NCBI GenBank assembly: GCA_041671505.1 | Contig: JBAZBK010000014.1 | Span: 20,395-84,394, forward strand | Length of the DNA stretch: 64,000 nucleotides | From: Thermoanaerobaculia bacterium | Lineage (GTDB): Bacteria > Acidobacteriota > Thermoanaerobaculia > Gp7-AA8 | Direction: 5' to 3' | Part shown: positions 3,909 to 53,485 of the stretch, piece after piece | How positions within the stretch are numbered: the first letter of the stretch is position 1 | Layout: each line of letters begins with the position of its first letter | The notes under the pieces: model-generated | The model's input: only the letters and a program-made list of their open reading frames with translations | The model's database searches: none | What the model was told of the DNA's origin: nothing | Translations under genes and position numbers: made by a program

Positions 3909-3936
3909 TGTCATTCCGAGCGCAGCGAGGAATCTG
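3909..3936. repeat. Solo arm of the MITE-like palindromic element family (GTCATTCCGAGCGCAGCGAGGAATCTGC)
   Basis: Matches the terminal arm of the elements at 3995-4160, 19150-19292, 41564-41719 and 43348-43515, but no partner arm follows directly. Confidence 0.4.
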
Positions 3937-3994
3937 CAGAAAGAAACTGCCACGAACCGAGTGGCCCACTCCATCCGAGCGGAGCGTGCAGGGT

Positions 3995-4160
3995 GTCATC
4001 CCGATGACCGAGTCCCGCGAAGCGGGACGAGGAAGGAGGGATCTCGCAGGCTGGTACAGATGAAGTTCAATGCTCCTGCTTCTGCTCGTGGCACATGAGT
4101 ACCAGCCTGCGAGGTCCCTCCTCCTTCCCCCGCTTCGCGGGGTCAGTCGTCGGGACGACA
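3995..4160. mobile_element. MITE-like palindromic repeat element, copy 1 (~165 bp, long imperfect inverted repeat)
   Basis: Left arm GTCATCCCGATGACCGAG...CGCGAAGCGGGACGAGGAAGGAGGGATCTCGCAGGCTGGTAC. Right arm GTACCAGCCTGCGAGGTCCCTCCTCCTTCCCCCGCTTCGCGGGGTCAGTCGTCGGGACGACA. A near-identical copy lies at 41564-41719 and related copies at 43348-43515 and 19150-19292. Sits between the amidohydrolase and the tricorn-like protease gene. Confidence 0.7.
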
Positions 4161-4280: not shown

Positions 4281-7200
4281 ATGAAACGACTCGCCGCGCT
4301 CGCAACCATGCTCTTTACGACGACGCTCGCCGCTGCAGGAGAGCACACGCTCTACCAGGAGCCGACGATGAGCCGGACGGCGATCGTCTTCGCCTACGCA
4401 GGCGATCTCTGGAGCGTCGCGCGCGCGGGAGGAACGGCCGTGCGGCTGACGACCAGTCCCGGCGTCGAGCGCACGCCGCGATTCTCGCCCGACGGATCGA
4501 CGATCGCGTTCTCGGGCGAGTACGACGGCAACGTCGACGTCTTCGTGATCCCCGCGGCTGGAGGCGTTCCGAAGCGTCTGACCTTCCATCCCGGCGCCGA
4601 CGCGGTGGTCGGATGGACGAGCGATGGCACGCGCGTCCTCTTCCACTCGTCGCGCGAGAGCAGCGCCGGTTACGACCGGCTCTTCACCGTCGGCCTCGAC
4701 GGAGGGCTCGCCGAGGCGCTTCCGCTTCCGCAGGCCTTCGAAGGCTCGTTCTCTCCCGACGGTACGCGAATCGCGTACCAGCCGATCACGAAGTGGCAGC
4801 CCGACTGGAAGAGGGCGCACGGCGGGCAGAACGGTCGCATCTGGATCGCCCGTCTTTCCGACTCGTCGGTCGAGAAGATGTCGTGGGACGGGTCGAACGA
4901 CGTTAGGCCCATCTGGATGGGCGACTCGGTCTACTTCATCTCCGACCGCAACAGCGCGACGGGCGCGCGATCGATCTTCGCCTGGAGCCCGGTGACGAAG
5001 CAGATCAGGCAAGTCATGAAGAATGACGGGCTCGACGTGAAATCGATGTCGGCCGGCCCCGACGCGATCGTGTACGAACAGTTCGGCACGATCTTCGTCC
5101 TCGACCCTGCGACCGCTGTGTCGAAGAAGGTCGACATCCGCGTCGACGGCGACTTCCCCGGCGTGCGCCCGCGCTTCGTGTCGGTCGGCGACTCGCTGCG
5201 CTCGCCGCGCATCTCGCCGACCGGGGCGCGCGCCGTCTTCGCGGCGCGCGGCGAGATCGTCACGGTGCCGGCGGAGAAGGGCGACCCGCGCAACCTAACC
5301 AACTCGCCCGGAGTCATGGAGCGCACTCCCGCCTGGTCTCCCGACGGCAAGTGGCTCGCCTACTTCTCCGACGAGTCGGGCGAGTACGCGCTCCACCTTC
5401 GCGACCAGAAGGGGAGCGGCGAGGTGCGGAAGATCGTCGCGAGCGATCCTCCAAGCTTCTATTTCGATCCGGTCTGGTCGCCCGACAGCAGGAAGATCGC
5501 GTATGCCGACCGGCGGCTGAACCTCTGGTACGTCGACGTCGACAAGCGCACCCCCGTGAAGGTCGACACGAGCGAGGTCGGCTTCACCGAGGCGGCGCTC
5601 GAGCCGGCCTGGTCGCCTGACAGCCAGTGGATTGCCTGGTCGAAGCGCACGCCTAACCTGATGCGCGCCGTCTTCGTCCACTCGATCGCCACCGGAAAGA
5701 CGCAACAACTGACCGACGGCATGAGCGACGTGGCGTTTCCCGTCTTCGACAAGAGCGGGAAGTACCTCTTCGTCGCGGCGAGCACTGACATTGGACGCGG
5801 CCTGAGCTGGGCTGACCTCTCGGGCATCGACAGCGTGTCGACCCGCGCGGTCTACGGCGTCGTGCTGCGCAACGACCTCCCCTCTCCGCTCGCGCCCGAA
5901 AGCGACGAAGAAAAGGGCGACGAGAAGAAGAAGGGCGACGACAAGGACAAGGCAGAGGAGTCGAAGAAGAAGGGTGGCGACAAGGAGAAGGCGGACGAGA
6001 AGAAGCCTGAGCCGGTTCGCATCGACTTCGACGGCATCGGTCAGAGAATCGTCGCGCTGCCGATCGCCGCGGCGAACGTGCGGAGTATCGCCGTGGGCAA
6101 GGAAGGGATCCTCTTCGTCGCGGTCACTCCGCCCAACCACTTCGGTTCCGACGCCGAGAGCTTCGATCTCCGCCGATTCAATCTCGAGAAGCGGAAGGAC
6201 GAGTCGTTCCTCTCCGGCATCAAGAACTTCGACATCTCCGCCAATGGCGAAAAAGTGCTCTTCCGCAAGGGGAAGAAGTGGACGATCGCCTCGACCGACG
6301 GGGAGCCGAAGGGAGACGATGGAACGCTCGCGACCGACGCGGTCGAGGTCCGCGTCGATCCACCGGCCGAGTGGCGCGAGATGTTCCGCGACGCGTGGCT
6401 CGCCGAGCGCGACCACTTCTACGATCCGAATCACCACGGGCTCGACATCGAGGCTGCGAAGAGGCTCTACGCGCCCTACCTCGACGCCGTCGCCCACAGG
6501 GCCGACCTCACCTATCTGTTCCGCGAGATGCTCAACCAGCTGACGATCGGGCACCTCTTCGTCGGCGGCGGCGACATCCCCGAGGTCGACAAGGTGAAAG
6601 GGGGGCTGCTCGGCTGCGACTTCGCGATCGAGAACGCTCGCTACCGGTTCAAGCGCGTCTTCGACGGTGAAAACTGGGACCCGGAGCTCCGCGCCCCACT
6701 GACCGCGCCCGGCGTAAGCGTGAAGACGGGCGATTATCTGCTCGCCGTGAACGGGCGCGATCTCGCAGCATCGGCCAACGTCTATGCCGCCTTCGAGAAT
6801 ACCGCCGACAAGCAGGTGACGATCCGCGTCGGACCGACAGCTGACGGCAAGGGCGCGCGCGACGTCACCGTCGTCCCGGTCGACGACGAGGAAGCGCTGC
6901 GACATCGGGCATGGATCGAGGGCAACCGCAGGAAAGTCAACGAGCTGAGCGGCGGAAAGCTCGCCTACATCTACATCCCTAACACCGGGAACGAGGGCTA
7001 TACGAGCTTCAATCGCTATTTCTTCTCGCAGACAGACAAGCAGGGGGCGGTCGTCGACGAGCGCAACAATCAGGGAGGGCTCCTCGCCGACTACGTAGTC
7101 GACTACCTGACGCGACCGCAGCTGAGCGCGATCACGTTCCGTTACGCGACGCGCGACGTTCGCGTTCCCGCGGGTGCGATCTACGGGCCGAAGGCGATGC

Positions 7201-8059: not shown

Positions 8060-8070
8060 TGCGCAGTAGT

Positions 8071-8196
8071 GGCCACGGCCTCTGGCCGTGGCGCGGAGGC
8101 CGGAGGCCTCCGCCACGAGGGGCCGCTCGTAGCCACGGCATCGCGATCGTGGCCACGGCCTCCGGCCGTGGCGCGGAGGCCGGAGGCCTCCGCCAC
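8071..8196. repeat. REP-like tandem: two copies of a 48-bp double-hairpin unit (GTGGCCACGGCCTCYGGCCGTGGCGCGGAGGCCGGAGGCCTCCGCCAC) separated by ~30 bp
   Basis: Each unit has two 9-bp-stem/3-nt-loop hairpins (GCCACGGCC/GGCCGTGGC and GCGGAGGCC/GGCCTCCGC). Lies between convergent genes (7586..8059 + and 8213..9739 -), so likely a bidirectional terminator or REP. The GGCCGGAGGCC core recurs in the lysC-upstream duplication. Confidence 0.6.
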
Positions 8197-8212
8197 TACG
8201 GACCACTCGCGG

Positions 8213-9739
8213 TCAAGTCAGCAGACACGCTCCTGGCACGAGTCCCATCGGCCTTCGCGCCAACCGATCGGCCGCTGCGCCCTCGCCCGCCTCGCGCAGC
8301 AGCGCGATCTCGAGTGACCTCGCCAGGCGATCCATCCATCCACGCGCCTGCCGCTCCTCGATCGACTCGAACGCGCTCTCCAGCGCGGCGGCTTCTTCGG
8401 GAAGCACGCGCGCGATCCGCGCGAGCGTGATGCGATGCCCCTCGTCCTTATGCGCGGCGCGCAGAGCGTCGAGCGCGAGGATATTCGTCGTCCCTTCCCA
8501 GATCGGAAGAACCTGGGCATCACGCAGCAGCCGCGGCATCGGCGACTCCTCGATGTAGGCGTTTCCGCCGATGAGCTCCATGCACTCCGAGACGACCGGC
8601 ACGGCGAGCTTGCCCGTCACCGCCTTGACGACCGGGGTCAGGAACCGCCGCTCGCGTGCGGCGTTCTCGTCGCCGCGATCCGCCTTTCCCAACAGGTCGA
8701 CCGTCTCAAAGGTCAGATGTAGCGCGCCGAGCTGCTCCGCTTCGGCGTCGAGGAGCGTCTCCTGCGCCAGAGCGTGCTCGATCACCCGCTTCCCGAACGC
8801 GCGCCTCCGCTCGATGTAGTAGCGCGCCTCGTGGATCGCGCGACCCATGACCGCCACCGCAGCGACCGAGTTGTAGAGGCGCGAGAGGTTCAGCATCTCG
8901 GCGATCGAGTGAAAGTCGCCGACTTCGACCGCGGGAACCGACGCGAGCGTCACCTCGCCGGTCGGCATCGACCGGACGCCTATCTTGTCCTTGATGCGGT
9001 CGATCGTCAGCCCGGGCGCCTCGCTGCGGAGAACGAGCCAGGTCTTCAGCCCTTTCGTTCCAGCCGGCGCTCCTTCGGGGCGTGCGGTCGCGAGGATCGC
9101 GTCGGCGTCGACGTTCGAGCAGAACCACTTCGTCCCCGTCAGCCACCAGAGCCCGAGCGAGTCCTGTCGCGCGATCGCCTCGTTCGCGCCGACGTCGGAG
9201 CCGCCGACCTTCTCGGTGAGGAACATCGCACCCGTCCAGAGCGTGCCCGGATCCGTCGACGCCAGCCGGTCGATCGTGGAGGAGAAGCGGTCGCGACCAC
9301 CGAACAGGCTGAGGATTCGCGCCACCCCGTCGGTCATGCAGACGGGGCAGTAGAGCCCCATCTCGCCCATGGCGAAAAGGTAGCCTAACGCGAACCCCGT
9401 GAGCTGGAGCGCATCGGGGTGGGCGGCCAGCGCGGCCGGGTCGTACTTCATCCCGACCATCCCCGAGCCGTACGCGATCGACTGCATCTCGCGGTAGGCG
9501 GGGTGGTAGTCGATCCGGTCGACGCGATTGCCGCGCGCGTCGTGCGTCACCAGGCGCGGTGACTCGCGGTCGGCGATCGCGGCGCGCGGCGCGACCTCTC
9601 GCACGGCCGTCTCCCCCATCGCGGCGAGCTGCGGCTCCGCCCACGCGAGGTCGACTGCGCTCAATTTCGCTTCGAGGATCTTCCGGAGTGCGGGAGATGC
9701 GTCCCAGTAGGAAACGTCAGGCGGTTCGGGAATCGGCAT
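8213..9739 (-). CDS. Acyl-CoA dehydrogenase family protein (AidB-like)
   Basis: Translation from internal Met (MPIPEPPDVSYWDASPALRKILEAKLS...) of track ORF 8213..9823. N-terminal AidB-like region, ACAD middle and C-terminal domains. The upstream 28 codons of the track ORF run into the heptamer-array element. Confidence 0.8.
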   Translation of the reverse strand: MPIPEPPDVSYWDASPALRKILEAKLSAVDLAWAEPQLAAMGETAVREVAPRAAIADRESPRLVTHDARGNRVDRIDYHPAYREMQSIAYGSGMVGMKYDPAALAAHPDALQLTGFALGYLFAMGEMGLYCPVCMTDGVARILSLFGGRDRFSSTIDRLASTDPGTLWTGAMFLTEKVGGSDVGANEAIARQDSLGLWWLTGTKWFCSNVDADAILATARPEGAPAGTKGLKTWLVLRSEAPGLTIDRIKDKIGVRSMPTGEVTLASVPAVEVGDFHSIAEMLNLSRLYNSVAAVAVMGRAIHEARYYIERRRAFGKRVIEHALAQETLLDAEAEQLGALHLTFETVDLLGKADRGDENAARERRFLTPVVKAVTGKLAVPVVSECMELIGGNAYIEESPMPRLLRDAQVLPIWEGTTNILALDALRAAHKDEGHRITLARIARVLPEEAAALESAFESIEERQARGWMDRLARSLEIALLREAGEGAAADRLARRPMGLVPGACLLT

Positions 9740-18743: not shown

Positions 18744-19149
18744 GGCAAATCTCTCCGTGACGGAGCGGCGCGCCCCGCAAACGTCATCTTGGACGCGCGA
18801 ACGCAACGGAAGTTCCCGACGCGGTCGCGGATGGAGAGTTCGGGAGCGCAGGCTCGGCGTGACGAGCTACTTCGACAGCATCCGCGTCCCGTCGGTCATC
18901 AGCGTCAGCCGCGGACGGTTCGCCTGCCGTTCCGGAACGACCAGCAGGAACTCCGTCGGCTCCGATGACATCGGCTCGTACCACCACCAGCCGATCGGCG
19001 GAGTGAAAGGCTCGGTCGGACTCCCCAATAGCGGCATCGGGACGAAGAAAGAGAGGCGACGACGGCTGCGACGATTTGACGCAGACGCGAAGTGCAGCTC
19101 CGAGCCATGCCTGGCGAATCGGCCGTGTCAGCCCGAGCGTAGTCGATCT

Positions 19150-19292
19150 GTCATCCCGAGCGTAAGGAGGGATCTGCTAACACATCAACTTGACCGCCCC
19201 CTTAGATACCACTCTCGCCACATCGTCACAGTTGCTGCTGGGGAACCGATCAGATCAAACGTTTAGCAGATCCCTCGCTTCGCTCGGGATGA
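19150..19292. mobile_element. MITE-like palindromic repeat element, divergent copy (arms GTCATCCCGAGCGTAAGGAGGGATCTGCTAA / TTAGCAGATCCCTCGCTTCGCTCGGGATGAC)
   Basis: ~30-bp inverted arms sharing the GTCATCCCGAGCG...GGGATC motif with the other copies, flanking a ~85-bp core. A partial direct duplicate of the arm start (GTCAGCCCGAGCGTAG) lies just upstream. Confidence 0.6.
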
Positions 19293-19331
19293 CGCGATCG
19301 CGGCTCGAACCTGCCCCTACTCCGCCGCGCC

Positions 19332-30361: not shown

Positions 30362-30506
30362 GCGGAGACTCTCTCCGGCGTCAGGAGCTCGTCGTCGCAT
30401 GGTGCAGTGCCACCGTGACGAGTCGCTCCAGCCGGAGCAGCTCCATTGGAAAGGTGAACGAAGGATGCGGCAAGCGTCGCCGTCACATCGAATTGTTCGT
30501 CTCTGT

Positions 30507-30750
30507 CGCCGGGACGTCCCGCCCCGGCCCCCGTCGCTTCGATCGCGTGTCCACCAAACAGCGCGCCTCTCTCCCCTCAATTGCGAAGGCCGGAGGCCTT
30601 CGCTACATGGCGCCCGGATGCGCCTTCCCCACACATCGAGCGTCGCCCCTGTAGCCGGGGCGTCCCGCCCCGGCCCCCGTCGCTTCGATCGCGTGTCCAC
30701 CAAACAGCGCGCCTCTCTCCGCACAATTGCGAAGGCCGGAGGCCTTCGCT
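30507..30750. repeat. Tandem duplication of a ~97-bp unit (two copies ~30507-30605 and ~30655-30750, >95% identical) in the leader region upstream of lysC
   Basis: Unit GCCGGGRCGTCCCGCCCCGGCCCCCGTCGCTTCGATCGCGTGTCCACCAAACAGCGCGCCTCTCTCC..CAATTGCGAAGGCCGGAGGCCTTCGCT. It ends in the hairpin GCGAAGGCC-GGA-GGCCTTCGC, which shares the GGCCGGAGGCC core with the repeats at 8071-8196. Confidence 0.7.
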
Positions 30751-30802
30751 CTAGGACGCCAGGTTGCGCCCCCCGACGCGCGCGGATACGATCGCCGGCG
30801 AC

Positions 30803-32845: not shown

Positions 32846-32854
32846 GGGCGCGGA

Positions 32855-33116
32855 GTTGTTAGTTGTTAGTTGTTAGTTGTTAGACATGACGCGAGAGGCG
32901 GGCCAGAGGCCAAAGGCCAGAGGCCAAAGCAGGCAGAGCATCGCAACGGCGTTCTCAAGGACTCGACGCTGTCGGTAAAAATGTGAGCCGCCGCACGTTC
33001 GGATGGCGCATCTACTGATACGTTACTTGATTGGATCGAACGACCCTCGACAACTAACAACTAACAACTAACAACTAACAACTAACAACTAACAACTAAC
33101 AACTAACAACTAACAG
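32855..33116. repeat. Heptamer-array-flanked cassette B: (TTGTTAG)x4 - ~170-bp core - (CTAACAA)x8
   Basis: Left GTTGTTAGTTGTTAGTTGTTAGTTGTTAGAC begins 10 bp after the dapB stop. Right CAACTAACAA(CTAACAA)n..CAGCCAACAGC ends 24 bp before the dapA ATG. The core has lower GC and an inner short tandem (GCCAGAGGCCAAAG x2). Confidence 0.75.
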
Positions 33117-33139
33117 CCAACAGCTCCCCAGGTGCACAC

Positions 33140-34039
33140 ATGATCGCTGACAAGTTTCGCGGGCTCGGTACGGCGCTGGTGACCCCCTTCAAGGCCGACG
33201 GGTCGATCGACGAGTACGGACTCGAGAAGCTCGTGACTCTCCAGATCGAAGGAGGCGTCGACTTTCTCGTGCCGTGCGGCACGACGGGAGAGAATCCGGC
33301 GCTCTCGGCGAGCGAGCATCTCCGCGTGATCGAGCTGGTGATCCGGCGCGCGAACGGCAAGGTGCCGGTGCTGGCCGGCGCGGGCAGCAACTCCACCGAC
33401 AAAGCCACCGACCTCGCTCTCGGCGCGCGCGACCTCGGCGCCGACGGCATCCTCTCGATCACCCCGTTCTACAACAAGCCAAACCCCGACGGCCTGCTCC
33501 GCCACTTCGAGACGCAGGCCGACGCGATCGACGACATGCCGATCATCCTTTACAACTGTCCCGGCCGGACCGGGCTCAACATGACCGCGACGACGACGCT
33601 TCGCATCGCGCGCGCGATCCCGAACGTCGTCGGCGTCAAAGAGGCGTCGGCGAATCTCGAGCAGATCCTCCAGATCCTCCGCGACCGGCTGAAGGACTTC
33701 CTCGTCCTCAGCGGCGACGACGCCTGGACGCTTCCCCTCATCGCGGCCGGAGCCGACGGCGTCATCTCCGTCGCCTCGAACGAGATCCCGCGGCTGATGA
33801 GCGAGCTGGTCGACGCCGCGATGCGCGACGACTTCGCCGCCGCGCGCCCGATCCACGAACGAATCCTCCCGCTCATGACCGGCAACTTCATGGAGTCGAA
33901 CCCGATCCCGGTCAAGGCGGCAATGAAGATGCTCGGCATCATCGACAACGACACCGTCCGCCTGCCTCTGGCGCCGATGTCGGACGAGAACTACGCCAGG
34001 ATGCGGGCGATACTGGCCGAATTGAGAATCGAGAACTGA
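33140..34039 (+). CDS. dapA: 4-hydroxy-tetrahydrodipicolinate synthase
   Basis: TIM-barrel DapA family with active-site Lys region (..NVVGVKEASANLEQ..) and GTTGE motif. The last six codons (ELRIEN) and stop are encoded by the first heptamers of cassette C. Confidence 0.9.
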   Translation: MIADKFRGLGTALVTPFKADGSIDEYGLEKLVTLQIEGGVDFLVPCGTTGENPALSASEHLRVIELVIRRANGKVPVLAGAGSNSTDKATDLALGARDLGADGILSITPFYNKPNPDGLLRHFETQADAIDDMPIILYNCPGRTGLNMTATTTLRIARAIPNVVGVKEASANLEQILQILRDRLKDFLVLSGDDAWTLPLIAAGADGVISVASNEIPRLMSELVDAAMRDDFAAARPIHERILPLMTGNFMESNPIPVKAAMKMLGIIDNDTVRLPLAPMSDENYARMRAILAELRIEN

Positions 34040-34174
34040 GAATTGAGAATTGAGAGAACGCAAACCGCAGGCTTCGCGAGCAGCCAGGGCTTGAGAATCT
34101 GAGATGGTCGAGCTCGCGGGTGAGAGCTCGCGCCTCTGCCATCTCTCAATTCTCAATTCCCAATTCTCAATTCC
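34019..34174. repeat. Heptamer-array-flanked cassette C: (GAATTGA/GAATCGA/GAACTGA)n - ~85-bp core - (TCTCAAT/TCCCAAT)n
   Basis: Left GAATTGAGAATCGAGAACTGAGAATTGAGAATTGAGAG overlaps the dapA 3' end. Right CTCTCAATTCTCAATTCCCAATTCTCAATTCCGC. The core has an internal palindrome (GAGCTCGCGGGTGAGAGCTCGCGCC). Same heptamer family as cassette H. Confidence 0.75.
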
Positions 34175-34197
34175 GCGATCCGAAGGAGCGCGTCACA

Positions 34198-35021
34198 TGC
34201 ATCCGACACAACAGAAGCTCGAATCTCTCGACAAGATCCACGACCGGATGGAGCAGGTCCGGATTCTCGGCCACTTCCTCGCCGATCTCGAGAAGGGGAT
34301 CATCCGCGCCGCCGAGCGCGGCGACGACGGCGTATGGGTAGCCCACGCCTGGGTGAAGGAGGGAATCCTCACCGCGTTCCGCATCGGCATCATCAACGAG
34401 TACGCCTCGGGGGCCCTCTCGTTCCTCGACAAGGACACGATTCCGCCGCGCCGCTTCCGGAAGGAAGACGGGGTGCGGGTCGTCCCGGGAGGCACCGCGG
34501 TGAGACGCGGCGCCCACATCGCGAAGGGCGTGGTGCTCATGCCCCCCTCGTACGTCAACGTCGGCGCCTTCGTCGACGAAGACACGATGATCGACTCGCA
34601 CGCCCTCGTCGGCTCGTGCGCGCAGATCGGCAAACGGGTCCACATCAGCGCAGCCGCGCAGATCGGCGGCGTGCTCGAGCCGGTTGGCGCTTTGCCGGTC
34701 GTGATCGAGGACGACGTGATCGTCGGAGGCAATTCGGGTGTCTACGAAGGGACGGTCGTCCGCCCGCGAGCCGTCATCGGCGCCGGCGTCATCCTCACTG
34801 CCTCGACCCCCGTCTACGACGCCGTTCGCCAGCAGGTCTACCGCCGCACCGCCGACCGGCCGCTCGAGATCCCTTACGGCGCCGTCGTCGTTCCCGGCAG
34901 CCGCCCCCTCACGAGCCCCTTCGGCATGGACAACGGCCTCCACATCTCCACCCCCGTCATCGTCAAGTACCGCGACGACAAGACCGACGCGGCGACGTTG
35001 CTGGAGGAGGCGCTGCGGTAG
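34198..35021 (+). CDS. dapD: 2,3,4,5-tetrahydropyridine-2,6-dicarboxylate N-succinyltransferase (DapD-like; left-handed beta-helix acyltransferase)
   Basis: Start MHPTQQKL with AAGGAG RBS 10 bp upstream. N-terminal helical DapD-type domain followed by hexapeptide repeats. 274 aa, the short DapD form. The N-acetyl-transferase DapH is not excluded. Confidence 0.7.
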
Positions 35022-35228
35022 GTCAGTGTTCAGTACTCAGTACTGAGTACTGAGTACTGAGTAAGGGCACCAGAGACGAGAGAAAAGAGAAGAGTTAAAA
35101 GTTGAGTTGACCGGGCTCCTCGGCTCCGCAACTCTTCACTCTTCTCTCTTCACTCTTCTCTCTTAACTTTTTCCGTCTTCCGTGTTCTAAACTCAGTACT
35201 CAGTACTCAGTACTCAGTACTCAGTACT
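35022..35228. repeat. Heptamer-array-flanked cassette D: outer (CAGTACT/CTGAGTA)n arrays enclosing nested element X with (AGAGAAG)/(CACTCTT CTCTCTT)n arrays
   Basis: Outer left GTCAGTGTTCAGTACTCAGTACTGAGTACTGAGTACTGAGTAAGG is itself a perfect palindrome. Outer right (CTCAGTA)x5 ends 6 bp before the aminotransferase ATG. Inner X at 35064-35172 is ~85-90% identical in its arms to 49934-50044. Confidence 0.75.
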
Positions 35229-35234
35229 AAAAAG

Positions 35235-36362
35235 ATGCGCCCCGCCTCCCGCTTCGCCTCGATCGATATCTCGCTCATCCGCAAGATGAACGCGATGGCG
35301 AAGCCGTCGACGCTCAACCTCGGGATCGGGGAGCCTAACGTCGAGCCCGATGCGGGGCTGCTCGCGATGGCGCGGGAAGCGGCGGGAGGCGATTGGCACT
35401 ACTCGCCGAACGCGGGCTACCGCTCGCTCCGAGAGAAGATCGCCGAGCGTCACGGCGGGACGTACGATCCGCGAGGCGAGGTCTGCATCACCGCGGGAAC
35501 GATGGAAGCGCTCTACGCGATCGCGCAGGGCTTCGTGGAGCAGGGTGACGAAGTGCTGGTGCCCGACCCGGGCTTCCTCGCCTATCCCGCGATCGCGACG
35601 CTCACCGGCGCCACGCCCGTCCCCTACCCGCTCGTTCCCGGAACATGGGACGTCGATCTCGACGCGCTCGCACGTCTCGTCACGCCGAAGACGAAGATGA
35701 TCGTCGTCAACACCCCGTCCAATCCCACCGGCGCGATCGTCCCGGAGGCGACGCTCCGCGCGATCGCCGCGCTGGGCGACGAGCGCGACCTCCTCGTCGT
35801 CTCCGACGAGGTCTACAGCGAGGTCTATTACGCGCACCGCCCGCCGTCGATGATCGGCATGGGGCGGAACGTCGTCGTCGTCGACGGCATGTCGAAGAGC
35901 CACGTGATGACGGGGCTGCGCATGGGTTGGATCCTCGCCCGCGCCGAGGTGATGTCGACGATTTACAAATCGCACCAGTACATCGCGACGTGCGCGTCGG
36001 TTTTCGCGCAGCAGTTTGCGGAGAAAATCCTGTCCGACTCGGAATGGAACGGCCGCTGGCTCGACGGCATGCGCGCCCAGTTCCGCGCGCAGCGTGACGC
36101 GCTCGTCACTGCACTCCGACGCGACGCCGGCATCGTGCTCGACCCACCTCTCGGCGCGTTCTACGCCTTCTTTCACGTCGACACCAACGACTCCCTCGCG
36201 CTTGCGACGAAAGCGGCGGCGGAAGCCGACGTGCTCGTGATCCCCGGCATCGCCTTCGGCGAACTGGGCGAAGGCTACCTGCGTGTCTCGTACGCCTCCG
36301 ACGTCGCCACGATCGACGAAGGTATTCGCCGCCTCGCGCCGTACATCAGGGGCGCGTCGTAA
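35235..36362 (+). CDS. Class I/II PLP-dependent aminotransferase (candidate N-succinyl-diaminopimelate aminotransferase, DapC-like)
   Basis: Aminotransferase fold with SKS-type PLP-Lys region (VVVDGMSKSHVMTGLRMGW). Positioned last in the lysC-dapB-dapA-dapD operon. The DapC assignment rests on context. Confidence 0.75.
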   Translation: MRPASRFASIDISLIRKMNAMAKPSTLNLGIGEPNVEPDAGLLAMAREAAGGDWHYSPNAGYRSLREKIAERHGGTYDPRGEVCITAGTMEALYAIAQGFVEQGDEVLVPDPGFLAYPAIATLTGATPVPYPLVPGTWDVDLDALARLVTPKTKMIVVNTPSNPTGAIVPEATLRAIAALGDERDLLVVSDEVYSEVYYAHRPPSMIGMGRNVVVVDGMSKSHVMTGLRMGWILARAEVMSTIYKSHQYIATCASVFAQQFAEKILSDSEWNGRWLDGMRAQFRAQRDALVTALRRDAGIVLDPPLGAFYAFFHVDTNDSLALATKAAAEADVLVIPGIAFGELGEGYLRVSYASDVATIDEGIRRLAPYIRGAS

Positions 36363-41428: not shown

Positions 41429-41563
41429 GCCAGGCGCAGTGTAGCGCGAGCGCCCTAACCCGACGAGACCGCCGTTCGGTTCGCCCCGGAGGGGCGCCGG
41501 ATAGTAGCCGGTGGCAAGCCGCGAGGCGGCGCCGCTCGCTTAATGTCGAGGAGCGTGCGGATC

Positions 41564-41719
41564 GTCATCCCGACGACCGAGCACCGCGAGGGAGGAGGGA
41601 TCTCGCAGGCTGGTACAGTCGAGGTTCGGCGCGAACTACCCGGCCAGTGGCACGTGAGTACCAGCCTGCGAGGTCCCTCCTCCTTCCCCCGCTTCGCGGA
41701 GTCAGTCGTCGGGACGACA
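41564..41719. mobile_element. MITE-like palindromic repeat element, copy 3 (near-identical to 3995-4160)
   Basis: GTCATCCCGACGACCGAGCACCGCGAGGGAGGAGGGATCTCGCAGGCTGGTAC ... GTACCAGCCTGCGAGGTCCCTCCTCCTTCCCCCGCTTCGCGGAGTCAGTCGTCGGGACGACA. It creates the spurious N-terminal extension of track ORF 41543..43261. Confidence 0.7.
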
Positions 41720-41812
41720 ACGCAAGCGTGCGTTAGCCAAACGTACCGCCGCTCCGCCCGAAAACCCGCTTCCGATCCGAATACTCCCGCTTCACGCCTC
41801 GTTGTCTCCGTC

Positions 41813-43261: not shown

Positions 43262-43347
43262 GGCGTCGTCGTGCCGGACGAGGAGAGGCTGGCGACATAC
43301 GGCTTCGGGATCGATGCTCGATCGAGCTGACGCGACCTGTACGACTT

Positions 43348-43515
43348 GTCGTTCCGAGAAGCGACCCCGCGAAGCGGGGGAGCGACGAGGAACCTCGCCG
43401 GCTGGTACATTCGCGCAACGAGCGAGAACGCCGGGGCGAGCAGACCTCATCTGTACCAGCCTGAGAGGTCCCTCCTCCCCGCTCCCGCTTCGCGGGATCG
43501 GTCGTCGGGACGACA
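43348..43515. mobile_element. MITE-like palindromic repeat element, copy 4 (divergent arms, same GGCTGGTAC...GTACCAGCCTGAGAGGTCCCTCCTCC core)
   Basis: GTCGTTCCGAGAAGCGACCCCGCGAAGCGGGGGAGCGACGAGGAACCTCGCCGGCTGGTAC ... GTACCAGCCTGAGAGGTCCCTCCTCCCCGCTCCCGCTTCGCGGGATCGGTCGTCGGGACGACA. 3' of the VWA gene. Confidence 0.65.
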
Positions 43516-43586: not shown

Positions 43587-44474
43587 CTAACGACCGCGTT
43601 TGATCGCGAGGCGAAGGGCGTTCCTGACCTCACCGAACATCGTCTCGGGTGCAACGCCGTCGTCGCGGTGACTCCACGCCTTCTTCGTCATCACCTCGAG
43701 CTTCCGCTCGTCGAGGACCTTGCCGTCGATCGTCGCGCCGTTCAGCTCGCAGAAGACGAGCAGAGAAACGAGCGCGACGCGGCGGTTGCCGTCCTTGAAG
43801 GGCCGGTCACGGAGAAGGCCCCAATAGAGCACCGCGGCCTTGTCGGAAAAGGCCTGGTAGGCCTCGCGACCAAGGAATGTCGACTGGGGGATCTGGACGG
43901 CGCGGACGAGCCCGAACTGCGACTCGACGACGCCCGGACTTGCATTGCGGCCGCCGATCTCGCGGTCGACTGCGATATGGAGCTCGACGAGCTCCTCGAC
44001 GGTCAGGTAGCGGATCCCGCTAGTCGGCGAGGCGACGGAGGGCGTCGGGGTACTTTTTGAGAGCCCGGGCGAAGGCTGCGGAGACGTCGGGGCGGAGACC
44101 GCCGCTGACGGCCGCGCCTTTGTTTCGGCTGTCGCCTGAGGCTGAGCCTTGGGCGCCGCTGCCTTTGCCACCGGCTGGGGCTGCGCCTTTGATGCCTTTG
44201 GCTGCGGGAGCGGCTTTGTCACCAGCTTTGACGGCGGGAGCGGCTTTGACCCCGCCTTTGACGGCGGGAGCAGCTTTGACACCGGCTTTGACGGCGGGAG
44301 CGACTTTGACGCCTTCTTTGGGGCGGACTTCGACTGGGGCTTTGACGGGTTTGGGGGGCTTTTCGGCTTTGGGGACGGCTTGGGCGACGACTTTTTTACC
44401 GCTTTTGCTGGTGGCCTGGCTTTTGAGGGCTTCGTGGCTACCTTTGGCGTGGCCTTTGCTTGCTTTTTTGCCAT
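43587..44474 (-). CDS. Doc/Fic-family (death-on-curing) protein with N-terminal Lys/Pro/Ala/Ser-rich histone-H1-like repeat region
   Basis: C-terminal Fic motif HIAVDREIGG...FKDGNRRVALVSLLVFCELNG. The N-terminal ~150 aa is low complexity (PPSKPVSKLLPPSKAGSKPLPPSKLVTKPLPQPKASK), encoded by ~33-bp tandem DNA repeats. Lys is mostly AAG as elsewhere in this genome; the overlapping alternative frame 44020..44481 uses AAA. Confidence 0.7.
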   Translation of the reverse strand: MAKKQAKATPKVATKPSKARPPAKAVKKSSPKPSPKPKSPPNPSKPQSKSAPKKASKSLPPSKPVSKLLPPSKAGSKPLPPSKLVTKPLPQPKASKAQPQPVAKAAAPKAQPQATAETKARPSAAVSAPTSPQPSPGLSKSTPTPSVASPTSGIRYLTVEELVELHIAVDREIGGRNASPGVVESQFGLVRAVQIPQSTFLGREAYQAFSDKAAVLYWGLLRDRPFKDGNRRVALVSLLVFCELNGATIDGKVLDERKLEVMTKKAWSHRDDGVAPETMFGEVRNALRLAIKRGR

Positions 44475-45123: not shown

Positions 45124-45140
45124 GGTCGAAGTCTTCGGGT

Positions 45141-45331
45141 GTCAGTTGTTAGTTGTCAGTTGTTAGTTGTCAGACAGAAGCAGTGGTCGCCATCGGTGTC
45201 ATCGTGCAGTCGTGATGAGAGAAAGTCCATGGGGCATGTCACGGTTTCGAGTGCGCGTCGCGATGGAGGCAACCGGGTGTCATACAACTCTGCCGCTGCC
45301 TATCTAACAACTAACAACTAAAAACTAACAA
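45141..45331. repeat. Heptamer-array-flanked cassette E: (GTTGTTA/GTTGTCA)n - ~130-bp core - (CTAACAA)n
   Basis: Left GTCAGTTGTTAGTTGTCAGTTGTTAGTTGTCAG. Right CTAACAACTAACAACTAAAAACTAACAACC. Same TTGTTAG family as cassette B with an unrelated core. Lies between the lhr stop and the start of the 91-aa ORF. Confidence 0.75.
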
Positions 45332-45339
45332 CCCTCCCT

Positions 45340-49884: not shown

Positions 49885-50118
49885 CGGAAGGCGAGGGGCG
49901 AGAGGCGATGAGCAACGGTAAGTGACGGAACGGCAGAGAAGAGTGAAAAGAGAGAAGAGAAGAGTTGAGAGTTGGGAGAGCCGGGCACCCTTGATGACGA
50001 GGTCAACTCTTCACTCTTCTCTCTTCACTCTTAACTCTTCTCTGCCTCCAGCTCCCGCGCTCCGGCTCATGCTCGCCCGCATCCGCCGACTCGCCTCTCG
50101 CCCCTCGCCTTTCGCCTC
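49885..50118. repeat. Composite cassette F: outer (GGCGAGG)n/(TCGCCTC)n heptamer arrays enclosing a second copy of nested element X (49934-50044)
   Basis: Outer left GGCGGAAGGCGAGGGGCGAGAGGCGATGAG. Outer right TCGCCTCTCGCCCCTCGCCTTTCGCCTCG. Inner X arms CAGAGAAGAGTGAAAAGAGAGAAGAGAAGAGTTGAGAGTTG / TCAACTCTTCACTCTTCTCTCTTCACTCTTAACTCTTCTCTG. Starts 15 bp upstream of the lhr start codon, in the divergent lhr/PDE promoter region. Confidence 0.7.
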
Positions 50119-51105: not shown

Positions 51106-51957
51106 ATGCCAAGACCTCGAATCAGCGCACTCGTCACGACGTACAACGAAGCCGAGCACGTGGAGCCATGCCTCCTCTCGCTCGAGTGGGCCGACGAGAT
51201 CGTCCTCGTCGACTCGTTTTCCAACGACGGCACGGCCGAGCTCGTCCGCGACCGCTTCCCGAAGGTCAAGTTCATCCAGCGCGAGTACCTCGGCTCCGCC
51301 GCGCAGAAGAACTTCGGCCTCGACTCGGTCTCGAACGACTGGGTCCTGGTCGTCGACGCCGACGAGCAGGTCACCCCGGAGCTGCGCGACGAGATCCTCC
51401 GCGTCCTGGAGGAAGGGCCGAAGTACTGGGCCTACTGGATCGGCCGATCGAACTTCGTTCTCGGCAAACCGGTGCGCTACAGCGGGCTCCAGCGGGACGG
51501 CGTCCGCCGTCTCATGCACCGGAAGAACGCTCGCTACCCGAACCGCCGCGTCCACACCGACCTCGCGGTCAACGGCCCCGTAGGACGCCTGCGCGGCAAG
51601 TTCAAGCACCTCTACATCCGCTCGTTCGACCACCAGGTCGAGAAGATGACGCGCTACGGTCTCTGGGGCGGCACGCAGCTCCACATCGAAGGGCGCGAAG
51701 TCTCGGCACCCGGAATCCTCGGCCACTCCTTCGCCCGCTTCTTCCGCGACTACGTCGTCAATCTCGGCTTCCTCGACGGAGCCCCCGGTCTCATCACCGT
51801 CGGCCTCCACACCTTCTACACCTTCTGGAAGTACTCCAAGCTCTGGGAGTTCAACCGCCTCAAGGAGCAGGGCAGGGCGCCGAAGCTCCCGAAGATCGAG
51901 ACCGATGAGGAAGTGTGGAAGATGCCTTGGGAAGAGGACGAAGGAGAGACGAATTGA
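51106..51957 (+). CDS. Family 2 glycosyltransferase
   Basis: N-terminal GT-A fold (ISALVTTYNEAEHV...DEIVLVDSFSNDGT...VVDADE DxD). The last three codons (ETN) and stop lie in cassette H. Confidence 0.8.
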   Translation: MPRPRISALVTTYNEAEHVEPCLLSLEWADEIVLVDSFSNDGTAELVRDRFPKVKFIQREYLGSAAQKNFGLDSVSNDWVLVVDADEQVTPELRDEILRVLEEGPKYWAYWIGRSNFVLGKPVRYSGLQRDGVRRLMHRKNARYPNRRVHTDLAVNGPVGRLRGKFKHLYIRSFDHQVEKMTRYGLWGGTQLHIEGREVSAPGILGHSFARFFRDYVVNLGFLDGAPGLITVGLHTFYTFWKYSKLWEFNRLKEQGRAPKLPKIETDEEVWKMPWEEDEGETN

Positions 51958-52062
51958 GAATTGAGAATTGAGAGACATAAAAGAGATATCAATTAGAGAC
52001 TGTTACCGTAGTCAATAATTGAGAATCGTTTCACGTCTCTCAATTCTCAATTCTCAATTCCG
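51951..52062. repeat. Heptamer-array-flanked cassette H: (GAATTGA)x3GAG - 60-bp AT-rich core - CTC(TCAATTC)x3
   Basis: Left GAATTGAGAATTGAGAATTGAGAGAC. Core ATAAAAGAGATATCAATTAGAGACTGTTACCGTAGTCAATAATTGAGAATCGTTTCACGT (~33% GC). Right CTCTCAATTCTCAATTCTCAATTCC. Lies between convergent GT2 and sigma-54 RR genes; the arms are near-perfect reverse complements. Confidence 0.75.
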
Positions 52063-52066
52063 CCCT

Positions 52067-53485
52067 CTACCCCTTCTCTCGCTCGATCGCGAACGCCTTC
52101 ATGCGCGATTCGAGCGTCGACGGGCTCAGCCCGAGCAGTTCCGCTGCGCCGCTCTTCCCCGAGATCTTCCAGTTGCAGCGCGCGAGCGCGTTCACGATGT
52201 TCCTCCGCTCCAGCCTCCGCCAATCGGACGCGGCGACCACCTCGCCGTCGCCCAGTGCATCGTCGAGCGAGCGGCTTCCCGCCGGCGACTCCGGGCCAGA
52301 CGCTTCCGAATGCGGATCGATGAGCGTCTCACGCCCCAGTATTTCTGCCTTGAGTCGCGCCAGCGCATCGAACACGATCGCTCGAAGCTCGCGCACGTTG
52401 CCGGGAAACGAGCAGTGACCGAGCGCGCGAACGAACTCGGGCGAGACCGGCGGCACCTGCTTGCCGAGATCAGCCGCAGCCTCGGCGACGAAGTGCTCCA
52501 CGAGAAGCGGCAGGTCGCCAAGCCGCTCGCGGAGCGGCGGAATCGAGACGTGATACGAACGAAGCCGGTAGTAGAGATCCTTCCGCAGCGCCGAGGTGTT
52601 CTGGTGCGTCGCGGCGACGACGCGGGCGTCCATCCGCTTCGGCGAGTCGGCGCCGAGCGGGAAATACTCCCGCTCCTGGAGCAGCCGGAGCAGCTTGACC
52701 TGGCTGCTCTCGGGCAGGTCGCCGATCTCGTCGAGAAAGAGCGTGCCACCCGCAGCCTGCTCGACCATGCCGCTTCGCGCCGTCGTTGCGCCCGTGAAGG
52801 CGCCCACTCGATGGCCGAACAGCGTGTCTGAGAACATCGCGTCGTCGAGCCCCGCGACGTTTACCGCGATGAACGGCCCCTTCCTCCCGCTCGCGCGGTG
52901 GAGAGCGCGCGCGATCAGTTCCTTTCCCGTTCCGGTCTCTCCGGTGATCAGCACCGGGTGCGCTCCGCGCGCGACCGTTTCGAGATACGAGAAGATGCGC
53001 TCCATCGCCTCGTCGACGGTGAAGATCGACTGGAACGCGGCGCTCCTCGGCGCCTGCCGGTCGAGCAGCGACGCCCGGAGACTCCTGTTCTCCTCCATCA
53101 GCTCCCAGTGCTCGAGCGCGCGACTGATCGTCGCGATGAGCTCATCGACCGGAGCTGGCTTGAGCAAGTAGTCGTACGCGCCGAGCTTCATGCACTCGAC
53201 GGCAGTTCGCGCGTCCTGCTCGGCGGTCACGACGATCACCATCACTTCGGGATTCGACTGCCTAACGATCTCGAGGATCTGCTTCCCTCCCATTCGGGGC
53301 ATGACGAGGTCGAGCAGAAGCACCGCCGGCGGATTGCCGGCGACCAGCCCGGGGACCGCAGGCGCATCGCTCGTCGTCGCCACGTTCTCGAAACCGTTCG
53401 CGCGGAGGATTCTGCTCACGCCGCGCACGACCTGCTCCTCGTCGTCGACGACGAGAATCAGGCGGCTCGCTCTGTCTTCAGCCAA
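52067..53485 (-). CDS. Sigma-54-dependent Fis-family response regulator (NtrC-like)
   Basis: Receiver (ILVVDDEEQ...D). AAA+ sigma-54 activator (GETGTGKELIARALH, GAFTGA). C-terminal HTH. The stop/start overlaps the upstream kinase gene. Confidence 0.9.
   Translation of the reverse strand: MAEDRASRLILVVDDEEQVVRGVSRILRANGFENVATTSDAPAVPGLVAGNPPAVLLLDLVMPRMGGKQILEIVRQSNPEVMVIVVTAEQDARTAVECMKLGAYDYLLKPAPVDELIATISRALEHWELMEENRSLRASLLDRQAPRSAAFQSIFTVDEAMERIFSYLETVARGAHPVLITGETGTGKELIARALHRASGRKGPFIAVNVAGLDDAMFSDTLFGHRVGAFTGATTARSGMVEQAAGGTLFLDEIGDLPESSQVKLLRLLQEREYFPLGADSPKRMDARVVAATHQNTSALRKDLYYRLRSYHVSIPPLRERLGDLPLLVEHFVAEAAADLGKQVPPVSPEFVRALGHCSFPGNVRELRAIVFDALARLKAEILGRETLIDPHSEASGPESPAGSRSLDDALGDGEVVAASDWRRLERRNIVNALARCNWKISGKSGAAELLGLSPSTLESRMKAFAIEREKG

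What the first reader, a model, noticed from the sequence alone, without database searches (positions are those of the whole stretch)
3909..4160. Second repeat family: ~150-190-bp palindromic MITE-like elements (4 copies plus a solo arm)
Copies at 3995-4160, 41564-41719 (near-identical), 43348-43515 and 19150-19292 (divergent), plus a solo arm at 3909-3936. They share termini GTCATYCCGA...GGGACGACA and an internal GGCTGGTAC/GTACCAGCC palindrome. All are intergenic, immediately 5' or 3' of genes (tricorn protease, VWA gene, pilT region). They generate spurious long ORF extensions in the six-frame track (MSTSLRGPSSFPRFA... appears twice). Multiple near-identical dispersed copies indicate recent mobility or a REP-like amplification system; no transposase or RAYT gene is in this window.
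Basis: seen in the sequence. Interest (0 to 1): 0.55.

Follow-up and report, generated by a model that had tools for sequence, protein, structure and literature searches.

The report
TGTC-tagged REP hairpin dimers (not MITEs)
The repeats are real. They are pairs of small self-folding "REP" hairpins facing each other in an uncultured acidobacterium: a new variant of a known, widespread class of bacterial intergenic repeats, not miniature transposons.

Summary
Three ~165-nt elements (3994-4160, 41563-41719, 43347-43515) each fold into a ~60-bp hairpin. A shorter relative lies at 19149-19294 and a solo arm at 3909-3936.

They are less alike than claimed: 3995 vs 41564 is 81% identical overall (right arm 98%, spacer 61%).

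Each arm is itself a REP-like unit: (T/C)GTC tag, a 5-bp stem, a GA/GA step, an apical GCGNAGC mini-hairpin or an expanded interior, then CTC. On 35 distinct arms the stem is 98.9% Watson-Crick. Four of its 5 pairs show compensatory double changes, and there are no G·U intermediates.

The elements are tags-outside ("HH") dimers whose spacer has complementary ends. No target-site duplications were found. Orthologous sites in relatives are empty.

The 26-nt core occurs in more than 120 viral contigs of 32-70% GC.

The closest known kinds are CGTC-tagged REPs (Di Nocera 2013) and the NTS/SRM hairpins cut by Ssn GIY-YIG ssDNA nucleases (Chenal 2025). The arms keep the critical GTC and 3' C, but fail the published SRM pattern. 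No ssn or Y1 gene lies in the DNA I hold.

Verdict: a new variant of a known kind, of moderate interest.

The parts
3909..3936 (+). Solo short REP arm (A-type): TGTC tag, stem ATTCC/GGAAT, GA-GCGCAGC-GA interior, CTG tail. It begins 11 nt after the stop codon of the TPR gene.
   Evidence: Zero mismatches to GTCRTYCCGAGCGNAGCGAGGRAYC.
3994..4045 (+). Dimer 1, left long arm (A-type): TGTC, stem ATCCC/GGGAT, interior holding the TCCCGCGAAGCGGGA hairpin, CTC tail.
4046..4110 (.). Dimer 1 spacer. Its complementary ends are GCAGGCTGGTAC / GTACCAGCCTGC, around a ~41-nt variable loop.
   Evidence: The loop is only 61% identical to that of dimer 2.
4111..4160 (-). Dimer 1, right long arm (G-type, read on the - strand): TGTC, stem GTCCC/GGGAC, CCCCGCGAAGCGGGG interior, CTC tail. 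The tricorn protease gene starts at 4281.
41563..41604 (+). Dimer 2, left arm (A-type, CGTC tag). A 10-nt deletion removes the inner GCGAAGC hairpin.
41605..41669 (.). Dimer 2 spacer, with the same complementary ends. It lies between the divergent AAA-kinase (-) and VWA (+) genes.
41670..41719 (-). Dimer 2, right long arm (G-type). It is 98% identical to the dimer 1 right arm.
   Evidence: (D10).
43347..43396 (+). Dimer 3, left long arm (G-type variant). Its stem GTTCC/GGAAC is a compensated C-G to T-A change.
43397..43464 (.). Dimer 3 spacer (GCCGGCTGGTAC ... GTACCAGCCTGA). It lies between the convergent VWA and Fic genes. The palindrome extends about 17 nt beyond both tags.
   Evidence: (I8).
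43465..43515 (-). Dimer 3, right long arm (G-type).
19149..19176 (+). Short-arm dimer, left arm (A-type; the apical hairpin has decayed to GCGTAAGG).
19267..19294 (-). Short-arm dimer, right arm (A-type, CGTC tag, perfect GCGAAGC). A 90-nt unrelated spacer separates the two arms. The dimer lies downstream of the DUF4440 gene and upstream of the PilT-type gene.

Best explanation
These are head-to-head (tags-outside) dimers of a (T/C)GTC-tagged repetitive extragenic palindrome, plus one solo unit.

The unit under constraint is the single 27-51-nt arm. Read 5' to 3', it has:
- an unpaired GTC;
- a 5-bp stem (RTYCY/RGRAY);
- a tandem G·A/A·G step;
- an apical GCGNAGC mini-hairpin, or an expanded interior holding CCCGCGAAGCGGG;
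- an unpaired C(TC).

Two arms, usually one 'A-type' and one 'G-type', face each other across a ~40-nt spacer with complementary ends. When the DNA is single-stranded, or is transcribed, the whole ~165 nt can zip into one hairpin (shown).

Inferred: they are the acidobacterial counterpart of CGTC-tagged REPs / Ssn-related motifs. On this reading they are bound and nicked as single-stranded DNA hairpins by a small structure-specific nuclease encoded elsewhere in the genome, most likely an Ssn-type GIY-YIG enzyme. That interaction would account for their spread, homogenised arms and persistence. They are not TIR/TSD transposon derivatives.
For: Shown here:
- Arm grammar in 41 arms from the window, two MAGs and a JGI contig: tag TGTC 37, CGTC 3, CCTC 1; tail CTC 35, CTG 5; GCGNAGC in 32.
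- The basal stem is 98.9% paired. Four of 5 pairs have changes on both sides, with 0 one-sided (G·U) states. Shuffles reach this 0/500 times, and slid controls give 13-59% paired.
- A-type/G-type heterodimers keep intra-arm pairing perfect, while inter-arm pairing is mismatched at exactly those positions.
- The same covariation holds in 132 of 145 core units from IMG/VR contigs of 32-70% GC. The loop N takes all four bases.
- There are no TSDs.
- The VWA-Fic site is filled in the window and in L031, but is only 6-9 nt long in L029 and L030.
- Four 95-98% identical copies sit at unrelated sites in MAG JACPDH01.

From the literature:
- CGTC REPs have CGTC/TGTC/CCTC tags, stems starting AT, short tails, mostly HH dimers, frequent heterodimers, and spacers with complementary ends (PMC3733652).
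- Ssn cuts such hairpins only as ssDNA. The 3 nt upstream of the palindrome matter for cleavage, and the C just after it matters for binding (PMC11893778). Those are exactly the invariant unpaired bases here.
- GCGNAGC is the extraordinarily stable DNA mini-hairpin (PMC13037366).

My own check: Ssn-family genes recovered from viral contigs and from Chloroflexi, Elusimicrobia, Deferrisomatales and Deltaproteobacteria MAGs are flanked by (C/T)GTC hairpins. Some of these have expanded interiors like the long arms here.
Against: - No Ssn/GIY-YIG gene was found in the window, in 3.5 kb beyond its end, or in about 1.4 Mb of REP-bearing loci.
- The arms do not match the published SRM search pattern. 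The GA/GA step breaks it, and the only hit in the window is an unrelated site at 34507.
- Gapped REP + Ssn-peptide patterns found nothing in IMG/VR.
- Nearest-neighbour DNA folding of single arms is not better than shuffles: z -0.04 to -1.9 for long arms and about 0 for short arms. The arm structure therefore rests on covariation alone.
- Sequences are related, so some of the covariation counts are inherited rather than independent. I count at least 6 independent events by eye.
- One dimer sits in a divergent promoter region. That location is atypical for REPs.
Confidence: 0.6

Rival explanations
1. Classical MITEs. On this reading they are deletion derivatives of a DDE-type insertion sequence. 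The transposase would bind the TGTCATCCCGA... terminal inverted repeats, mobilise the elements in trans and create target-site duplications.
For: - The ends are inverted repeats, and the size (140-170 bp) is typical of MITEs.
- Sites differ between relatives by presence or absence.
- In MAG JACPDH01, a short TGTC dimer sits inside a 215-nt element with TA-flanked ends. That outer element does look like a MITE.
Against: - No direct repeats flank 18 copies.
- The 'TIR' is a self-complementary unit with compensatory changes, which transposase-binding sites do not need.
- Solo arms are common.
- The same 26-nt unit occurs across contigs of 32-70% GC.
- No transposase gene bounded by these ends was found in any held locus.
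Confidence: 0.08
2. True REPINs, mobilised by a Y1 HUH transposase. The candidates are RAYT/TnpA_REP, or the class 3 TnpA_Y1 reported in Acidobacteria and Planctomycetes.
For: - The inverted doublet forming a hairpin is the REPIN architecture (PMC3116915).
- Class 3 TnpA_Y1 genes in Acidobacteria are flanked by hairpins of the same build: stem, GA/GA step, 2 bp, small loop, e.g. CAGAGCCGCGACCGTTAGGGAGCG (PMC6006769, supplement read).
- The window also holds GT[AG]G-type REPs at 8062-8220, so a RAYT is probably in this genome.
Against: - The tag is (T/C)GTC, not GT[AG]G or CnGA.
- In contig L074, which carries both repeat kinds, the RAYT-like gene is flanked by GT[AG]G REPINs and not by the TGTC units.
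- Di Nocera et al. found no tyrosine transposase flanked by CGTC REPs (PMC3733652).
- No Y1 gene lies in the window or in the acidobacterial loci. These queries were recalled from memory and are approximate.
Confidence: 0.15
3. Primarily RNA elements. The hairpins would be selected as 3' mRNA stabilisers, factor-independent terminators or small RNAs, and the DNA-level repeat would be a by-product.
For: - Four of the 5 sites lie downstream of a gene's 3' end. The solo arm starts 11 nt after a stop codon.
- The transcripts would fold very stably.
- REPs are known to act this way in E. coli (reviewed in PMC6006769 and PMC3733652).
Against: - No U-tract follows any copy on either strand (sequence).
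- One copy lies between divergent genes.
- No Rfam family matches; the only hits are generic miRNA-hairpin matches far below threshold.
- The covarying stem shows no G·U states among 35 distinct arms.
- Mismatches in the long hairpin are U·G on one strand and A·C on the same strand elsewhere, so no strand is favoured.
- GCGNAGC is noted for stability as DNA (PMC13037366).
Confidence: 0.15
4. Chance similarity or a segmental duplication.
For: None beyond the shared sequence itself.
Against: - Motif counts are far above shuffles.
- Flanks are unrelated (54-61% identity, i.e. background).
- Copies occur in other genomes at other sites.
Confidence: 0.01

Closest known systems
CGTC-tagged REPs (Di Nocera, De Gregorio & Rocco 2013, PMC3733652), including Neisseria dRS3 and Rickettsia RPE-4/6
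   Same: - Unpaired tag CGTC, often TGTC or CCTC, at one end.
- Stem starting A-T.
- Short unpaired tail beginning with C.
- Mostly tags-outside (HH) dimers, with frequent heterodimers.
- 20-100-nt spacers with complementary ends.
- Intergenic, mostly 3' of genes.
- No transposase next to them.
   Different: - Described stems are 8-9 contiguous bp with 4-5-nt loops and a CCA tail. Here the stem is 5 bp + GA/GA + 2 bp with a GNA triloop, or a 20-30-nt structured interior, and the tail is CTC/CTG.
- Half of the arms start G-T rather than A-T.
- Reported in 5 phyla, not in Acidobacteria.
Ssn-related motifs (NTS/SRM) and Ssn GIY-YIG ssDNA nucleases (Chenal et al. 2025, PMC11893778)
   Same: - A hairpin repeat with conserved GTC 5' of the palindrome and C 3' of it. 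These are the bases found critical for cleavage and binding.
- Many dispersed copies.
- Some SRMs next to ssn genes that I retrieved have expanded interiors with an inner hairpin (L249, L252, L253).
   Different: - The arms fail the SRM search pattern.
- No ssn gene was found in the DNA available.
- The NTS-ssn-NTS arrangement was not seen for this repeat type.
REPINs / BIMEs with RAYT (Bertels & Rainey 2011, PMC3116915; PMC6006769)
   Same: - Two REP units in inverted orientation forming a long hairpin as the apparent unit.
- Solo units that look like remnants.
- Two arm subtypes, like Y and Z in E. coli BIMEs.
- Presumed action on single-stranded DNA.
   Different: - The tag is not GT[AG]G.
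- The RAYT seen in L074 is flanked by the other repeat family.
Class 3 TnpA_Y1-associated hairpins of Acidobacteria/Planctomycetes (Quentin et al. 2018, PMC6006769)
   Same: - Same host phylum.
- Same hairpin build: basal stem, tandem GA/GA, 2 G-C pairs, small purine-rich loop.
- High copy number reported (~600 in Solibacter).
   Different: - The foot is CnGA(G) rather than TGTC.
- The stem and loop sequences are unrelated (CCGC-GA-CC-GTAA-GG-GA-GCGG).
Bacterial MITEs such as Correia (Neisseria) or ERIC
   Same: Size of 130-170 bp, terminal inverted repeats, intergenic location, long-hairpin transcripts.
   Different: Those have TA target duplications and IS-related ends. Neither was found here.

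Membership tests
CGTC-tagged REP superfamily (PMC3733652) | Unpaired terminal tag CGTC (variants TGTC, CCTC) at one end of a stem-loop | tested here: met
   41 arms: TGTC 37, CGTC 3, CCTC 1. T and C of the GTC are invariant and G nearly so in alignment A4.
CGTC-tagged REP superfamily (PMC3733652) | Stem of 8-9 bp with complementary A-T in the first two positions; loop of 4-5 nt | tested here: not met
   The stem is 5 bp, then a GA/GA mismatch, then 2 bp. The loop is a 3-nt GNA, or is replaced by a 20-30-nt interior. The first pair is A-T in 17 and G-C in 18 of 35 distinct arms.
CGTC-tagged REP superfamily (PMC3733652) | Short unpaired tail (consensus CCA) | tested here: inconclusive
   A conserved 3-nt tail exists but reads CTC (35) or CTG (5). 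Only the first C is shared with CCA.
CGTC-tagged REP superfamily (PMC3733652) | Predominantly HH dimers (tags outside), spacers of 20-100 nt, often with complementary ends | tested here: met
   All 4 dimers in the window, and 14 or more in related loci, have their tags outside. Spacers are 40-90 nt, with GGCTGGTAC/GTACCAGCC ends.
CGTC-tagged REP superfamily (PMC3733652) | Many dispersed copies per genome | tested here: inconclusive
   There are 9 arms in 64 kb, at least 20 arms in 11 loci of MAG JACPDH01, and 5 loci in JAMPYE01. The source genome as a whole is not available.
Ssn-related motif / Ssn system (PMC11893778) | Match to HGTCWYN(0-2)YYVSBRHN(0-5)WNVSBRGN(0-2)RNCYNB | tested here: not met
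   None of the arms matches. The single hit in the window (34507, - strand) is unrelated.
Ssn-related motif / Ssn system (PMC11893778) | Conserved 3 nt upstream of the palindrome and C immediately after it | tested here: met
   GTC upstream and C downstream are the most conserved unpaired positions.
Ssn-related motif / Ssn system (PMC11893778) | A cd10448-type ~95-aa GIY-YIG gene in the genome, typically flanked by the repeats | not testable with these tools
   None in the window, none 3.5 kb beyond its end, and none in the REP-bearing loci. This used an HMM of real Ssn homologues at E<=10. The rest of the genome cannot be reached.
Ssn-related motif / Ssn system (PMC11893778) | Cleavage of the hairpin strand as ssDNA only | not testable with these tools
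   Needs biochemistry.
REPIN / RAYT | GT[AG]G tetranucleotide 5' of the hairpin foot | tested here: not met
   The tag is (T/C)GTC.
REPIN / RAYT | Single-copy RAYT gene flanked by the same REPs | tested here: not met
   No Y1 gene lies near any copy. In L074 the RAYT-like gene is flanked by GT[AG]G REPINs, while the TGTC units lie 1.2 kb or more away.
MITE (DDE transposon derivative) | Target-site duplications flanking terminal inverted repeats | tested here: not met
   Flanks of 18 copies show no direct repeats. Several flanks are weakly inverted instead.
MITE (DDE transposon derivative) | A related autonomous IS with the same ends | tested here: inconclusive
   No tag pairs enclose a transposase-sized ORF in the loci held. 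Whole genomes were not searchable.
Intrinsic terminator | GC-rich hairpin followed by a U-tract | tested here: not met
   No T-run follows any copy on either strand (sequence).

The most novel reading that the evidence does not exclude
The TGTC-ATYCY-GA-GCGNAGC-GA-RGRAT-CTC unit is an undescribed, cross-phylum REP family that is also found in phage genomes. It would have its own dedicated ssDNA-hairpin enzyme: a divergent Ssn clade or another small nuclease. In this Thermoanaerobaculia lineage it would have been built up into 165-nt A/G heterodimers that replicate as units. That would make it a GIY-YIG-driven analogue of the REPIN-RAYT partnership.
Probability: 0.25. Interest if true: 0.6.

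Novelty: new variant of a known kind. Interest (0 to 1): 0.4.

Why it matters
CGTC-type REPs had no known partner enzyme until 2025, when Ssn nucleases were found to cut them as single-stranded DNA.

This window shows a variant of that repeat class in a phylum where it had not been described. The variant has a distinct stem design (tandem G·A plus the GCGNAGC DNA mini-hairpin) and unusually large, two-type dimers. Its 26-nt core turns out to be common in environmental and phage contigs.

If an Ssn-like gene proves to be its partner, two things follow:
- The known specificity range of a potentially useful family of programmable ssDNA nucleases would widen.
- There would be a second system, beside REPIN-RAYT, for studying long-lived intragenomic replicators.

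Practically, these repeats break assemblies and create false ORF extensions. Annotators of such MAGs should mask them.

Tried and rejected
Searches that found nothing useful:
- Rfam at gathering and E-value thresholds: only generic miRNA-precursor hairpin hits, far below threshold.
- Literature search for the motif as a string: no relevant paper.
- PLSDB plasmids: the core is absent.

Enzyme hunts:
- tblastn with Y1 transposase queries recalled from memory: nothing near any copy. The one RAYT-like gene (L074) belongs to the GT[AG]G repeat family.
- My first GIY-YIG consensus turned out to be the UPF0213 type. 80 metagenome loci with such genes carry no tagged hairpins.
- A second recalled consensus did recover real Ssn-family genes with flanking (C/T)GTC hairpins. 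None of these carries the GAGCGNAGCGA-type arm.
- A third recalled GIY-YIG type gave too few hits.
- Gapped REP + Ssn-peptide DNA patterns in IMG/VR: 0 hits.
- Recurrent genes next to the core in viral contigs are phage structural genes, not enzymes.
- Extending the window through a Logan contig added 3.5 kb, with no repeat and no nuclease.

Methods that proved uninformative:
- My generic 'tagged hairpin' detector is too noisy to use genome-wide: 111 hits against 62 in shuffles.
- Single-arm thermodynamic folding is not informative.

Rejected explanations: segmental duplication, integron attC, intrinsic terminator and CRISPR-like array. The sequence features do not fit any of them.

Full report
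**Observation.** The window holds three long palindromic elements at 3994-4160, 41563-41719 and 43347-43515.
- Each folds as a single strand into one ~60-bp hairpin with a ~40-nt loop. RNA MFE is -105 to -122 kcal/mol, z is -6.9 to -12.5, and no shuffle folds as well, on either strand.
- The inner motif GAGGRAYCTCNCNGGCTGGTAC occurs six times, against 0.03 expected.
- The terminal TGTCRTYCCGA occurs seven times, against 0.26 expected.
- A fourth element at 19149-19294 and a solo unit at 3909-3936 share only the terminal ~27 nt.
The spurious ORF extensions are real.
- 'Near-identical' is overstated. 3995 vs 41564 is 81% identical overall: right arm 98%, left arm 78% with a 10-nt deletion, spacer 61%, flanks at background.

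**Anatomy.** I collected 41 arms from the window, two acidobacterial MAGs and a JGI contig. All follow one grammar:
- the tag (T/C)GTC;
- a 5-nt half-stem RTYCY;
- GA;
- an interior;
- GA;
- the complementary half-stem RGRAY;
- the tail CTC or CTG.

The tags are TGTC 37, CGTC 3 and CCTC 1. The tails are CTC 35 and CTG 5. The interior is either GCGNAGC alone (short arms) or a 20-30-nt expansion that usually contains CCCGCGAAGCGGG. GCGNAGC is present in 32 of the 41 arms.

On 35 distinct arms the 5-bp stem is 98.9% Watson-Crick. Four of its five pairs show changes on both sides, and none shows a one-sided G·U state. No shuffle out of 500 reaches these values, and sliding the partner drops pairing to 13-59%. 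The variants seen are ATCCC/GGGAT, GTCCC/GGGAC, ATTCC/GGAAT, GTTCC/GGAAC, ATCCT/AGGAT, GTCCT/AGGAC and GCCCT/AGGGC. By eye that is at least six independent compensated events.

Most dimers join an A-type arm to a G-type arm. Pairing within each arm is therefore perfect, while pairing between arms is mismatched at exactly those positions. The unit under constraint is thus the single arm, not the long hairpin.

One caveat applies. Nearest-neighbour DNA folding of single arms is not better than shuffles. Such parameters do not model tandem sheared G·A pairs or the GCGNAGC mini-hairpin, whose exceptional stability as DNA is documented (PMC13037366).

**Dimers.** In all four dimers the tags point outward. 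The three long dimers have a spacer whose ends are complementary (GCAGGCTGGTAC / GTACCAGCCTGC) around a poorly conserved loop. None of 18 copies has flanking direct repeats, and several flanks are weakly inverted.

**Relatives and turnover.** The window itself is not in the genome collection. Only two Logan contigs from run SRR18595301 match it, and one of them ends inside an element.
- The long element occurs at 70-94% identity in MAGs JACPDH01 (Acidobacteria, groundwater) and JAMPYE01 (Thermoanaerobaculia), at unrelated sites.
- Synteny around the VWA gene is conserved. The VWA-Fic spacer is 325 nt with the element in the window, and 280 nt with a diverged element in a 93%-identical relative (L031). 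It is only 6 nt and 9 nt in two more distant relatives (L029, L030).
- In JACPDH01, four 95-98% identical copies of a 215-nt composite carrying a short dimer lie at unrelated sites.

The family is therefore gained or lost over time. Segmental duplication is excluded.

**Breadth of the core.** My estimate of the chance expectation is about 0.03. The contigs span 32-70% GC.
- Of 145 units, 132 have perfectly complementary half-stems: ATTCT 63, ATCCT 39, ATTCC 16, ATCCC 10, GTCCT 3, GTTCT 1.
- The tag is TGTC in 128.
- The loop N takes all four bases.
- In one phage clade the units sit between structural genes.
- The core is absent from PLSDB plasmids, and no paper in the library contains it as a string.

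**What is known.** Di Nocera et al. 2013 (PMC3733652) defined CGTC-tagged REPs. These have the following features:
- a CGTC tag, often TGTC or CCTC;
- stems starting A-T;
- short tails;
- mostly tags-outside (HH) dimers, with frequent heterodimers;
- spacers with complementary ends;
- occurrence in five phyla, not including Acidobacteria;
- no associated transposase.

Chenal et al. 2025 (PMC11893778) showed that such hairpins (Neisseria NTS, generalised as SRM) are bound and cut, only as single-stranded DNA, by Ssn. Ssn is a ~95-aa GIY-YIG nuclease whose gene is typically flanked by the repeats. The three bases upstream of the palindrome govern cleavage, and the C just after it governs binding. 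In the arms here, those are the invariant unpaired bases.

Quentin et al. 2018 (PMC6006769) describe class 3 Y1 proteins of Acidobacteria flanked by hairpins of the same build. Their foot (CnGA) and sequence are different.

**Tests of the enzyme link.**
- No Y1 gene lies near any copy. In L074, which carries both repeat kinds, the RAYT-like gene is flanked by GT[AG]G REPINs.
- My first GIY-YIG query retrieved the UPF0213 type. 80 such loci carry no tagged hairpins.
- A second query recovered genuine Ssn-family genes. In seven of sixteen viral loci, and in MAGs of Chloroflexi, Elusimicrobia, Deferrisomatales and Deltaproteobacteria, the gene is flanked by (C/T)GTC hairpins. One is identical to the Neisseria NTS. 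Several have expanded interiors with an inner hairpin, like the long arms here.
- None of these carries the GAGCGNAGCGA-type arm.
- The arms fail the published SRM pattern.
- An HMM of real Ssn proteins finds nothing in the window or in any REP-bearing locus.
- Gapped REP + Ssn-peptide patterns found nothing in IMG/VR.

The Ssn partnership is therefore an inference from motif grammar and the literature. It has not been shown.

**Verdict.** These are tags-outside dimers of a TGTC-tagged REP. They are a new variant within a known superfamily, in a phylum where that superfamily had not been reported.

The MITE reading fails for three reasons: there are no TSDs, the ends are hairpins, and solo units exist. 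An RNA role is possible but unsupported, because there is no U-tract, no strand bias, no G·U state and no Rfam match.

The most likely mechanism is recognition as an ssDNA hairpin by a small nuclease encoded elsewhere. I give this overall picture a probability of 0.6, and about 0.4-0.5 to Ssn specifically.

Noticed in passing
window 32854-33126, 34016-34176, 35023-35242, 45130-45334, 49932-50062, 51944-52067: Tandem arrays of 7-nt units (ACAACTA, AATTGAG, AGTACTC, ...) pair up as inverted blocks 70-200 nt apart. The same ACAACTA array abuts a repeat in MAG locus L017. A Logan contig of this organism ends in an AATTGAG-type array (L259). A (GGGTTAT)n array lies just 3' of an ssn gene in L252.
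   Followed up: partly
window 8062-8220: Two 79-nt units, each a pair of GC-rich hairpins tagged GTAG / GTGG (classical GT[AG]G REP type). There is a 94% match in MAG locus L022 5471-5522. The genome therefore carries both REP superfamilies, and probably a RAYT somewhere.
   Followed up: partly
window 30497-30770: A 128-nt tandem duplication, 91% identical.
   Followed up: no
L010 5851-6065, L012 5854-6073, L017 3529-3743, L015 6724-6895: A 215-nt composite element in MAG JACPDH01. Its TA-flanked ends read CTGACAAGTCGGCGGTTTG..., and it carries a short TGTC-REP dimer inside. Four copies are 95-98% identical at unrelated sites. The outer shell looks like a true MITE.
   Followed up: partly
window 41429-41812 vs L031 1672-2371, L029 8829-10000: Where the window has the REP dimer between the AAA-kinase and VWA genes, relatives carry an extra gene: an acetyltransferase in L031, and a nucleoside hydrolase in L029 and L030. 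Gene content differs at a REP site.
   Followed up: partly
window 3980-3990 and 41549-41559; L002, L015, L022, L024 left flanks: A loosely conserved GCGTGCGG motif lies 2-4 nt upstream of the tag of A-type arms. AGCGTGCG appears again 6 nt 3' of the 41563-41719 dimer. It could be a target preference or part of the element.
   Followed up: no
window 44194-44343: 30-nt periodic repeats lie inside the proline/lysine-rich N-terminal region of the Fic-domain gene, on the coding strand (-).
   Followed up: no
L074 5335-5424: In a viral contig, the portal-like ORF reads through a TGTC-REP pair (peptides VIPSEARNL ... RPRNDK). This is either an intragenic REP or an over-extended ORF.
   Followed up: no
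L086 4232-4257 and 7561-7586; L053, L054, L098: The 26-nt core sits at the same intergenic positions of a conserved phage structural-gene cassette (SU10-type adaptor and neighbours) in several viral contigs.
   Followed up: partly
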